Assembly (NCBI GenBank): GCA_009914755.4
Contig: CP086569.2
Coordinates: forward strand, 1,440,001 to 1,504,000
Direction: 5' to 3'
Length of the DNA stretch: 64,000 nt
Source of the DNA: the human T2T-CHM13v2.0 reference genome, Homo sapiens
Shown: in pieces, positions 56,440-56,775 of the stretch
Position numbering within the stretch: the stretch's first letter is position 1
Layout: every line of letters starts with the position of its first letter
Notes under the pieces: model-generated
Seen by the model: the letters and a program-made list of their open reading frames with translations, nothing else
Told to the model about the DNA's origin: nothing
Database searches by the model: none
Position numbers and translations under genes: made by a program

Positions 56440-56775
56440 TCATGTCCTTTGCAGGGACATGGATAAAGCTGGAAACCATCATTCTCAGCAAACTATCGCA
56501 AGGACAGAAAACCAAACACCGCGTGTTCTCACTCATAGGTGGGAACTGAACAATGAGACCACATGGACACAGGGAGGGGAACGTCACACACTGGGGCCTG
56601 TCAGGGCCTGGGGGGCTGGGAGGCTGGGGGAGGGAGAGCACTAGGACAAATACCTAATGTAAATGACGAGTCGATGGGTGCAGCAAACCACCATGGCACA
56701 TGGATACCTATGTAACAAAACCGCATGTTCTGCACATGTACCCTAGAACTTAAAGTATAATAAAAAGAAAAAAAA
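56440..56775 (+). mobile_element. LINE-1 3' fragment (end of ORF2 plus the 3'UTR). It hosts the alternative ASMT exon at 56455-56538.
   Basis: ...gacatggataaagctggaaaccatcattctcagcaaactatcgcaaggacagaaaaccaaacaccgcgtgttctcactcataggtgggaactgaacaatgagaccacatggacacagggaggggaac... followed by ...accaccatggcacatggatacctatgtaacaaaaccgcatgttctgcacatgtaccctagaacttaaagtataat. This is the canonical L1 3' terminus. Confidence 0.85.
56455..56538 (+). CDS. ASMT: Alternative, LINE-1-derived ASMT cassette exon (84 nt, 28 codons: [30 protein letters not shown]). Acceptor is tttgcag| and donor is ATAG|GTGGGA. It keeps phase 1 between exon 5 and the next constitutive exon.
   Basis: The exon lies inside an L1 3'-end fragment. 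The ORF is the C-terminal end of L1 ORF2p ([28 protein letters not shown]). It has canonical AG/GT sites and is exactly 84 nt with no stop. Established knowledge: human HIOMT/ASMT has an alternatively used exon derived from LINE-1 that gives a longer isoform. Confidence 0.55.

What the first reader, a model, noticed from the sequence alone, without database searches (positions are those of the whole stretch)
56440..56775. Exonised LINE-1: 84-nt in-frame cassette exon of ASMT made from the last 28 codons of L1 ORF2
Inside an L1 3' fragment, tttgcag|GGACATGGATAAAG...CTCATAG|gtggga forms an 84-nt open exon. It starts in phase 1 and ends in phase 1, exactly compatible with the flanking constitutive exons (53690 G | 56901 GT). 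It encodes [28 protein letters not shown], the C-terminal end of L1 ORF2p. This fits the reported LINE-1-derived alternative exon that gives the longer HIOMT/ASMT isoform. A second, non-exonised copy of the same L1 3' terminus lies in intron 1 (43160-43325) and makes a useful internal control for why one copy is spliced. The insertion falls inside the Rossmann-fold region of the methyltransferase, so the long isoform is probably inactive.
Basis: partly seen in the sequence, partly recalled or inferred. Interest (0 to 1): 0.5.

Follow-up and report, generated by a model that had tools for sequence, protein, structure and literature searches.

The report
Known LINE-1-derived ASMT exon 6
This is the long-known alternative exon 6 of the human melatonin-synthesis gene ASMT, built from the tail of a LINE-1 retrotransposon; it adds 28 amino acids in the cofactor-binding loop, giving an isoform reported to be inactive, so the finding is correct but not new.

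Summary
Window 56455-56538 (+) is an 84-nt open segment flanked by tcctttgcag| and |gtggga. It enters and leaves in phase 1, matching exon 5 (53572-53690) and exon 7 (56901-57041). The window encodes the whole ASMT coding sequence; the spliced 345-aa product is 100% identical to human ASMT (PDB 4A6D). Read in the L1 frame, the segment matches the C-terminus of LINE-1 ORF2p (E=1.8e-15). Inclusion gives 373 aa, and skipping exon 7 gives 298 aa. These are the three pineal isoforms reported by Donohue 1993 and Rodriguez 1994, with exon 6 described as LINE-1. Reviews citing Botros 2013 state that the 373 isoform is inactive. The insert lies between G188 and G189, inside SAM-binding motif I (DLGGGAG).

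Corrections:
- The exon covers ORF2 codons 1245-1273 of 1275, not the last 28. The donor GT lies in Gly1273, so Gly-Asn-stop stay intronic.
- The "second copy" (43176-43331) is 3'UTR only. It begins 81 nt past the exon's donor, so it is not a control.

Added: the L1 is a roughly 350-bp 5'-truncated fragment with 18-nt target-site duplications. An AluY-like element later inserted into it, and its A-tail ends 26 nt upstream of the acceptor, where the only well-placed branch-site match lies.

Verdict: already known, low interest.

The parts
56455..56538 (+). ASMT alternative exon 6 (84 nt, phase 1 to phase 1). It derives from L1 ORF2 codons 1245 (bases 2-3) to 1273 (base 1) and encodes (G)[27 protein letters not shown](G).
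   Evidence: literature
56436..56454 (+). 3' splice site region: short pyrimidine tract ttcatgtcctttgcag and AG at 56453-56454, all L1 ORF2 sequence (..MSFA|G..). L1HS ORF2p has Val (inferred codon GTA, giving tag|GG) where this copy has Ala (GCA, giving cag|GG).
56539..56549 (+). 5' splice site gtggga. The GT is bases 2-3 of the L1 Gly1273 codon. It is followed by L1 codons Gly1274, Asn1275 and the ORF2 stop TGA (56547-56549), which stay intronic. It is the weakest donor of the gene's internal exons by a rough position weight matrix (6.6, against 7.1-12.8).
56104..56120 (+). 5' end of the 5'-truncated L1 fragment (ORF2 codons from about 1235, IKKDEF), separated from the rest of the L1 by the later Alu insertion.
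56442..56773 (+). Remainder of the L1 fragment: ORF2 tail, 3'UTR, AATAAA (56759-56764) and short poly(A).
56086..56103 (+). Upstream target-site duplication of the L1 insertion (AAGATTAGACATGGTGGA).
   Evidence: family D5: 15/18 identical to 56774-56791
56774..56791 (+). Downstream target-site duplication of the L1 insertion (AAGACCAGACATGGCGGA).
   Evidence: family D5
56121..56427 (+). AluY-like dimeric Alu with a degenerate A-rich tail, inserted into the L1 ORF2 sequence. The tail ends 26 nt upstream of the exon-6 acceptor AG.
   Evidence: Sub-threshold 7SL/SRP hits to both monomers. 93.0% identical to a recalled AluY consensus, against 89.6% to recalled AluSx.
56107..56120 (+). Upstream target-site duplication of the Alu (AAAAGGATGAGTTC). 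Its downstream copy is 56428-56441 (AAAAGGATGCGTTC).
   Evidence: family D7: 13/14
56419..56423 (+). Candidate branch site TTAAT (branch A at 56422, position -33) inside the Alu tail. This is inferred, not shown.
53572..53690 (+). ASMT exon 5 (119 nt). It ends with 1 base of the Gly189 codon.
56901..57041 (+). ASMT exon 7 (141 nt, 47 aa). Skipping it together with exon 6 gives the 298-aa isoform.
38964..62815 (+). Complete ASMT coding region. E1 38964-39032, E2 46903-47077, E3 48033-48162, E4 51453-51521, E5, (E6), E7, E8 60190-60312, E9 62604-62815 including the stop.
   Evidence: 345/345 identical to 4A6D

Best explanation
Window 56455-56538 is the known alternative cassette exon 6 of human ASMT (HIOMT).

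Origin. A 5'-truncated LINE-1 3' fragment inserted in the sense orientation into the intron between constitutive exons 5 and 7. It comprises the last 41 codons of ORF2, the 3'UTR and poly(A), and is flanked by 18-nt target-site duplications. The ORF2 tail itself carries an acceptor (..CCTTTGCAG|GG) and, 84 nt downstream, a donor (CATAG|GTGGGA).

Splicing. When the spliceosome uses both sites the segment is spliced in. Because 84 is a multiple of 3, and ASMT's phase-1 junction coincides with the ORF2 frame, the exon is read in L1's own open frame. It adds 28 residues and yields the 373-aa isoform. The donor is the weakest in the gene, which is consistent with minority inclusion.

Consequence. 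The insert lands between G188 and G189, inside the glycine-rich SAM-binding motif I (D185-L-G-G-G-A-G191) at the end of beta-strand 1 of the Rossmann-like fold. The long isoform cannot make melatonin, and published work reports it as inactive.

Shown here: sequence, phase, L1 and ASMT identities, nested repeat anatomy and domain position. Taken from the literature: the exon is present in pineal mRNA, inclusion is low, and the isoform is inactive. Inferred: the weak donor causes low inclusion, and the branch site lies in the Alu tail.
For: - Exon, splice sites and phase.
- Flanks are human ASMT, 86/86. The full spliced coding sequence is 345/345 identical to 4A6D, and the 373-aa product aligns as residues 1-188 plus 187-345 with the insert between.
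- L1 ORF2p C-terminus match, E=1.8e-15 over residues 1238-1275. It extends to residue 1234/1235 when the Alu is removed in silico.
- It is the only L1-derived open 84-mer in the intron.
- Exon arithmetic matches the published isoforms: 84/3=28 (373-345) and 141/3=47 (345-298).
- Literature: exon 6 contains LINE-1, three pineal isoforms exist, 345 is the major and active form, and 373 and 298 are inactive (PMC8123408; PMC7341587). The case is listed as an L1 exonization in ASMT (PMC3123540).
- Pfam: PF00891 covers residues 117-327 as one stretch in the 345 isoform and is split in two in the 373 isoform. Methyltransf_12 and _25 start at residues 185/184 (profile position 2) in the 345 isoform, but only at residue 216 (profile positions 5/6) in the 373 isoform.
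- Donor ranking.
Against: - I could not compare directly with a deposited 373-aa or transcript sequence. Identification with the published exon therefore rests on length, position, L1 origin and uniqueness, not on a residue-by-residue match.
- No expression data were available here.
- The splice-site scores use a position weight matrix recalled from memory and are good only for ranking.
Confidence: 0.95

Rival explanations
1. Composite exonization. The L1 supplies the exon and both splice sites, but inclusion depends on the later AluY insertion. Its degenerate A-tail, ending 26 nt upstream of the AG, provides the branch site (TTAAT, A at -33). The exon would then be an L1+Alu product, restricted to lineages that carry the Alu.
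For: - The Alu is nested in the L1 with clean 14-nt target-site duplications and is AluY-like.
- In the present sequence the only strict yUnAy match at a usual distance is in the Alu tail.
- The reconstructed pre-Alu context has only TTCAT at -13 and a relaxed ATAAA at -28.
- A review states that macaque pineal expresses only the 345-type mRNA.
Against: - Branch sites are degenerate in humans, and a motif scan is weak evidence.
- TTCAT at -13 or ATAAA-type sites could serve instead.
- There are no orthologous primate sequences, no lariat data and no minigene data.
- An A-rich tract next to a short pyrimidine tract could just as well weaken the acceptor.
Confidence: 0.2
2. The long isoform is not mere splicing noise. 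It has a function of its own, for example as a catalytically dead partner that heterodimerises with ASMT345 and lowers melatonin synthesis.
For: - The N-terminal dimerisation domain (PF08100, residues 5-95) is untouched by the insertion.
- The exon is in frame, so the mRNA should escape nonsense-mediated decay.
- The isoform mRNA is detected in pineal.
Against: - It is reported at a low level and with unclear function.
- No conservation evidence is available, and other mammals are reported to express only the 345 type.
- The exon still closely resembles L1 (32 of 38 residues identical to L1HS ORF2p), with no sign of adaptation.
- An insertion in motif I may simply destabilise the fold.
Confidence: 0.1
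3. The segment is only an intronic L1 fragment whose splice-like flanks are coincidental and are not used in vivo.
For: - Five open AG..GT 84-mers occur in this intron, so such segments do arise by chance.
- No transcript data could be examined here.
Against: - Published cDNA and pineal mRNA contain a LINE-1 fragment as exon 6, giving a 373-aa protein (Donohue 1993 and Rodriguez 1994, as cited).
- This is the only L1-derived candidate of the right length and phase.
Confidence: 0.02

Closest known systems
Human ASMT/HIOMT exon 6, 373-aa isoform (Donohue et al. 1993, PMID 8397829; Rodriguez et al. 1994, PMID 7989373)
   Same: Same gene (345/345 identity to 4A6D). Same position (sixth coding exon, between the 119-nt and 141-nt exons). 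Same size (28 aa) and same origin (LINE-1). Same consequence (an isoform inactive for melatonin synthesis, per Botros 2013 as cited in reviews).
   Different: Nothing detectable; this is the same object. The primary sequences could not be retrieved for a letter-by-letter check.
Sense-strand L1 exonization through splice sites carried by the L1 sequence (general class; e.g. the DMD L1 exonization in PMC5664103 and the surveys)
   Same: Both the acceptor AG and the donor GT are L1 sequence. The element is intronic and co-transcribed with its host.
   Different: In this case both sites lie in the ORF2 tail of an old 5'-truncated fragment, and the exon is read in ORF2's own frame. The DMD case uses an intronic acceptor plus an L1 donor in a full-length L1HS. 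A 2026 bioRxiv preprint on lung cancer reports that antisense L1 exonization is commoner than sense.
Alu exonization (antisense Alu cassette exons)
   Same: A primate-specific retroelement creates a low-inclusion alternative exon.
   Different: Here the Alu is in the sense orientation and is not exonic. At most it contributes the branch-site region upstream of the L1 acceptor, which is a hypothesis only.

Membership tests
Human ASMT gene (exons 5 and 7 flank the candidate) | The spliced coding sequence encodes the ASMT protein. | tested here: met
   Eight GT-AG exons give 345 aa, identical to PDB 4A6D residues 1-345. PF08100 and PF00891 are present.
ASMT exon 6 / 373-aa isoform | An in-frame 28-aa insertion between exons 5 and 7; exon 7 of 47 aa. 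| tested here: met
   84 nt, phase 1 to 1, no stop codon. Exon 7 is 141 nt. Products of 373, 345 and 298 aa are reproduced and agree with PMC8123408.
ASMT exon 6 / 373-aa isoform | The insert sequence is identical to the deposited isoform or transcript. | not testable with these tools
   There is no ASMT in the protein collection. The primary papers are not held. A peptide search of the literature found nothing.
ASMT exon 6 / 373-aa isoform | The exon is present in pineal mRNA. | not testable with these tools
   Literature only: Donohue 1993, as cited.
LINE-1 3' fragment | Homology to the ORF2p C-terminus ending at the ORF2 stop, followed by 3'UTR, AATAAA and poly(A). | tested here: met
   ORF2p residues 1234/1235-1275 with the stop at the homologous place. 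The 3'UTR is 87.9% identical to another L1 3' end in the window. AATAAA and an A-run are present.
LINE-1 3' fragment | Target-site duplications flanking a 5'-truncated insert. | tested here: met
   18-nt direct repeat at 56086-56103 and 56774-56791, 15/18 identical.
LINE-1 3' fragment | Subfamily assignment (L1PA number) and age. | not testable with these tools
   No repeat library is available. All that can be said is that the copy differs from L1HS ORF2p at 6 of 38 residues.
Transposable-element exonization | Both splice sites and the exon body lie within the transposable-element sequence. | tested here: met
   The acceptor AG lies in ORF2 codons 1244/1245 and the donor GT in codon 1273.
Class I SAM-dependent methyltransferase, motif I disruption | The insertion lies within the glycine-rich SAM-binding loop that follows beta-strand 1. 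| tested here: met
   The insert is between G188 and G189 of DLGGGAG. Generic methyltransferase profiles start at residues 184/185 in the 345 isoform and lose their first 3-4 positions in the 373 isoform. PF00891 is split. That this loop contacts SAM is established knowledge of the fold and was not tested here.
Alu (AluY) element upstream of the exon | Dimeric 7SL-derived structure, A-rich tail and target-site duplications. | tested here: met
   Two SRP-RNA-like hits, a 14-nt target-site duplication, and 93.0% identity to a recalled AluY consensus. The consensus is from memory.

The most novel reading that the evidence does not exclude
The exon is a two-element product. An AluY that inserted into the L1 fragment 26 nt upstream of the acceptor supplied the branch site in its degenerate A-tail, and this turned a silent L1 ORF2 tail into a spliced exon. 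That would explain why the long isoform is reported in human but not in macaque, and it would be an example of a sense-oriented Alu tail activating a neighbouring element's cryptic acceptor.
Probability: 0.15. Interest if true: 0.3.

Novelty: already known. Interest (0 to 1): 0.1.

Why it matters
It matters little as a discovery. The LINE-1 exon of ASMT/HIOMT was described in 1993-1994, appears in review tables of primate transposable-element exonizations, and its product has been reported inactive.

It remains a tidy teaching case. A retrotransposon's own coding tail carries a usable acceptor and donor. It is read in its original frame, and it lands in the cofactor-binding loop of the last enzyme of melatonin synthesis.

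The only possibly useful addition is the nested AluY directly upstream of the acceptor. This gives a cheap, testable hypothesis for why this L1 copy is spliced.

Tried and rejected
- **Protein collection search.** I searched with the 114-aa exon 5-6-7 product to find a deposited long isoform. There were no hits at E<=1e-20, not even to ASMT itself, so the collection evidently lacks this human protein. This is a null result, not evidence against.
- **Primary papers.** Botros 2013 and Donohue 1993 are not held. I relied on open-access reviews that cite them.
- **Peptide search of the literature.** A full-text search for [14 protein letters not shown] found 0 papers.
- **The intron-1 L1 copy as a control.** Rejected. 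It aligns only to 56619-56775 (3'UTR) and lacks the exon and both splice sites. The only other related piece in the window is antisense and 75.6% identical (30414-30491), so it is not informative either.
- **Structure prediction of the 373 isoform.** Considered and not run. It would have needed a costly homologue search, and the functional outcome is already published.
- **L1 subfamily and age.** Not assignable without a repeat library.
- **Other L1 exonization papers.** I checked whether they report the same ORF2-tail splice sites. Nothing specific was found.

Full report
**1. Observation**

The candidate exon is window 56455-56538 (+), 84 nt. It is preceded by aaggatgcgttcatgtcctttgcag| and followed by |gtgggaactg. 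The upstream exon (53572-53690, 119 nt) ends with a single codon base, and the downstream exon (56901-57041, 141 nt) begins with two. Joining 53690 to 56901 gives ..CDLGG-GAGALAKE.. Including the 84 nt keeps the frame open and adds (G)[27 protein letters not shown](G).

Openness and phase are not improbable on their own. The 3.2-kb interval between the two constitutive exons holds 11 AG..GT 84-mers, five of them open in phase 1. Only this one reads as the L1 ORF2 tail. Two of the others translate to peptides I recognise as Alu-type. Two start in or just after the L1 poly(A) tail and have almost no pyrimidine tract.

**2. Identity of the flanks**

The exon 5+7 translation is 86/86 identical to human hydroxyindole O-methyltransferase, PDB 4A6D. 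I used a recalled ASMT sequence only as a probe. With it I located eight canonical GT-AG coding exons in the window:
- 38964-39032
- 46903-47077
- 48033-48162
- 51453-51521
- 53572-53690
- 56901-57041
- 60190-60312
- 62604-62815

Their spliced product is 345 aa. It is independently 100% identical to 4A6D residues 1-345. The window therefore carries the whole ASMT coding region of human, or of a genome indistinguishable from human at the protein level. The candidate is the sixth coding exon.

**3. Identity of the exon**

Read in the same frame, the region gives [38 protein letters not shown] followed by a stop. This matches LINE-1 ORF2p residues 1238-1275, the very C-terminus, at E=1.8e-15, with 6 substitutions relative to L1HS.

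The exon runs from base 2 of codon 1245 to base 1 of codon 1273. The donor GT is bases 2-3 of the Gly1273 codon. Gly1274, Asn1275 and the TGA (56547-56549) remain intronic. "The last 28 codons" is therefore two codons off.

ASMT reads the exon in ORF2's own frame. At the acceptor, L1HS ORF2p has Val where this copy has Ala. I infer the L1HS codon to be GTA, giving tag|GG, against GCA here, giving cag|GG. If so, both versions carry an AG, and the splice-site pair is a property of the L1 family rather than of this copy alone.

**4. Repeat anatomy (new detail)**

The L1 is a short 5'-truncated fragment.
- Homology to ORF2p begins at residue 1234/1235 (IKKDEF..), at about 56104, once an intervening element is removed in silico.
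- The fragment ends in AATAAA and a short A-run at about 56773.
- An 18-nt direct repeat flanks it: 56086-56103 and 56774-56791, 15/18 identical.

A dimeric Alu sits inside the L1 at 56121-56427.
- Both monomers give sub-threshold SRP-RNA hits.
- It has its own 14-nt target-site duplication: 56107-56120 and 56428-56441, 13/14 identical.
- It is 93.0% identical to my recalled AluY consensus, against 89.6% for recalled AluSx.

The order of events was therefore L1 first, then the Alu. The Alu's degenerate A-tail (aaaaataaataaattaataaataaaa) ends 26 nt upstream of the acceptor AG. The zone where branch points usually lie is thus Alu-tail sequence. The only strict yUnAy match at a usual distance (TTAAT, A at -33) lies there. 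The reconstructed pre-Alu context has only TTCAT at -13. This is a hypothesis, not a result.

**5. The "second copy"**

BLAST of the L1 fragment against the window finds 43176-43331 (87.9% identical). It does lie in the intron after the first coding exon. However, it aligns only to 56619-56775, which is 3'UTR beginning 81 nt after the exon's donor. It has neither the exon nor either splice site, so it explains nothing about why one copy is spliced. The only other related piece (30414-30491) is antisense and 75.6% identical.

**6. Splice signals**

By a rough position weight matrix recalled from memory (good for ranking only), the exon-6 donor TAG|gtggga scores lowest of the gene's internal donors: 6.6, against 7.1-12.8. 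It matches 5 of 9 consensus positions. The acceptor's pyrimidine content (0.72) is average for the gene. This fits an alternative, minority exon, but it does not prove it.

**7. Consequence for the protein**

The 373-aa product aligns to 4A6D as residues 1-188 and 187-345, with the insert between them.
- Pfam's O-methyltransferase domain (PF00891, residues 117-327) is one stretch in the 345-aa form and two in the 373-aa form.
- The generic SAM-methyltransferase profiles Methyltransf_25 and _12 start at residues 184/185 (profile position 2) in the short form. In the long form they start only at residue 216 (profile positions 6/5).
- The insertion therefore sits inside motif I, D185-L-G-G|G-A-G191. 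From established knowledge of class I methyltransferases, this is the glycine-rich loop after beta-strand 1 that lines the SAM site.
- Even if the L1-encoded ..RVFSLIG replaced ..LMCDLGG as the strand before GAGALAKE, D185 would become Ser and G187 would become Ile.
- The dimerisation domain (residues 5-95) is untouched.

**8. What is known**

Open-access reviews state the following.
- Human pineal has three ASMT mRNA isoforms, encoding 373, 345 and 298 aa.
- The 345 and 298 forms lack exon 6, and exons 6+7, respectively.
- Exon 6 contains LINE-1 sequence.
- The 345 form is the major and active form, while 373 and 298 are inactive in melatonin synthesis.
- Bovine and macaque pineal express only the 345 type.

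These statements cite Donohue 1993, Rodriguez 1994 and Botros 2013 (PMC8123408; PMC7341587). A 2011 review table lists "ASMT - LINE-1 - exonization - novel isoform - pineal gland" (PMC3123540).

The exon sizes found here reproduce the isoform lengths exactly: 84 nt = 28 aa and 141 nt = 47 aa. The finding is therefore the known exon.

**9. Limits**

I could not obtain a deposited long-isoform sequence or the primary papers. The identification rests on position, length, phase, L1 origin and uniqueness rather than on a letter-by-letter match. No expression data, primate orthologues or repeat library were available.

**10. Verdict**

Novelty: already known. Interest: low. The most novel reading still open is that the nested AluY tail supplies the branch site and made the exonization possible (probability about 0.15, modest interest).

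Noticed in passing
window 48141-48741 (exon 3 ends at 48162): A 31-nt minisatellite (about 19 copies, 93% matches) starts inside ASMT exon 3 and spans its donor. The exact donor string GAG|GTGGGGGCTG recurs 12 more times downstream at 31- or 62-nt steps, with 0 expected by chance. This is a ladder of potential cryptic, out-of-frame 5' splice sites.
   Followed up: partly
window 60584-62567: An 83-nt minisatellite (about 23.5 copies, roughly 2 kb) fills most of the last ASMT intron and ends 37 nt before the exon 9 acceptor (62604).
   Followed up: no
window 3762-5482 and 5732-6669: Two minisatellite arrays (units of 76/294 nt and 135/341 nt) have consensus units that look like reverse complements of each other (..AATATCAGCCAAGAAAAGAGATG.. 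against ..CATCTCTTTTCTTGGCTG..). I judged this by eye from the consensus units. If correct, they form a large inverted pair separated by about 250 nt.
   Followed up: no
window 11943-13669; 1429-2531: Very long simple repeats: (TCCCC) about 345 copies and (TGGA) about 276 copies. The window is unusually rich in tandem arrays upstream of ASMT.
   Followed up: no
window 56759-56764: The L1's own AATAAA lies in the sense orientation 220 nt downstream of the exon-6 donor. It could give prematurely polyadenylated ASMT transcripts.
   Followed up: no
window 56258-56385 and 55721-55779: Sub-threshold Rfam hits to mir-1268 and mir-3135 lie within the Alu elements (7SL-like hits at the same places). 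I take them to be Alu-derived matches rather than independent miRNA genes.
   Followed up: no
window 43313-43352: A perfect (ATA)13 microsatellite has replaced or extended the poly(A) tail of the intron-1 L1 3'UTR fragment. That fragment abuts the A-tail of an upstream Alu (about 43000-43174).
   Followed up: no
window 56107-56120 against 56428-56441: The two Alu target-site copies differ at one base, GAG (Glu, as in the L1 consensus) against GCG (Ala). The downstream copy, next to the acceptor, therefore mutated after the Alu inserted. The change creates a CpG 21 nt upstream of the AG.
   Followed up: no
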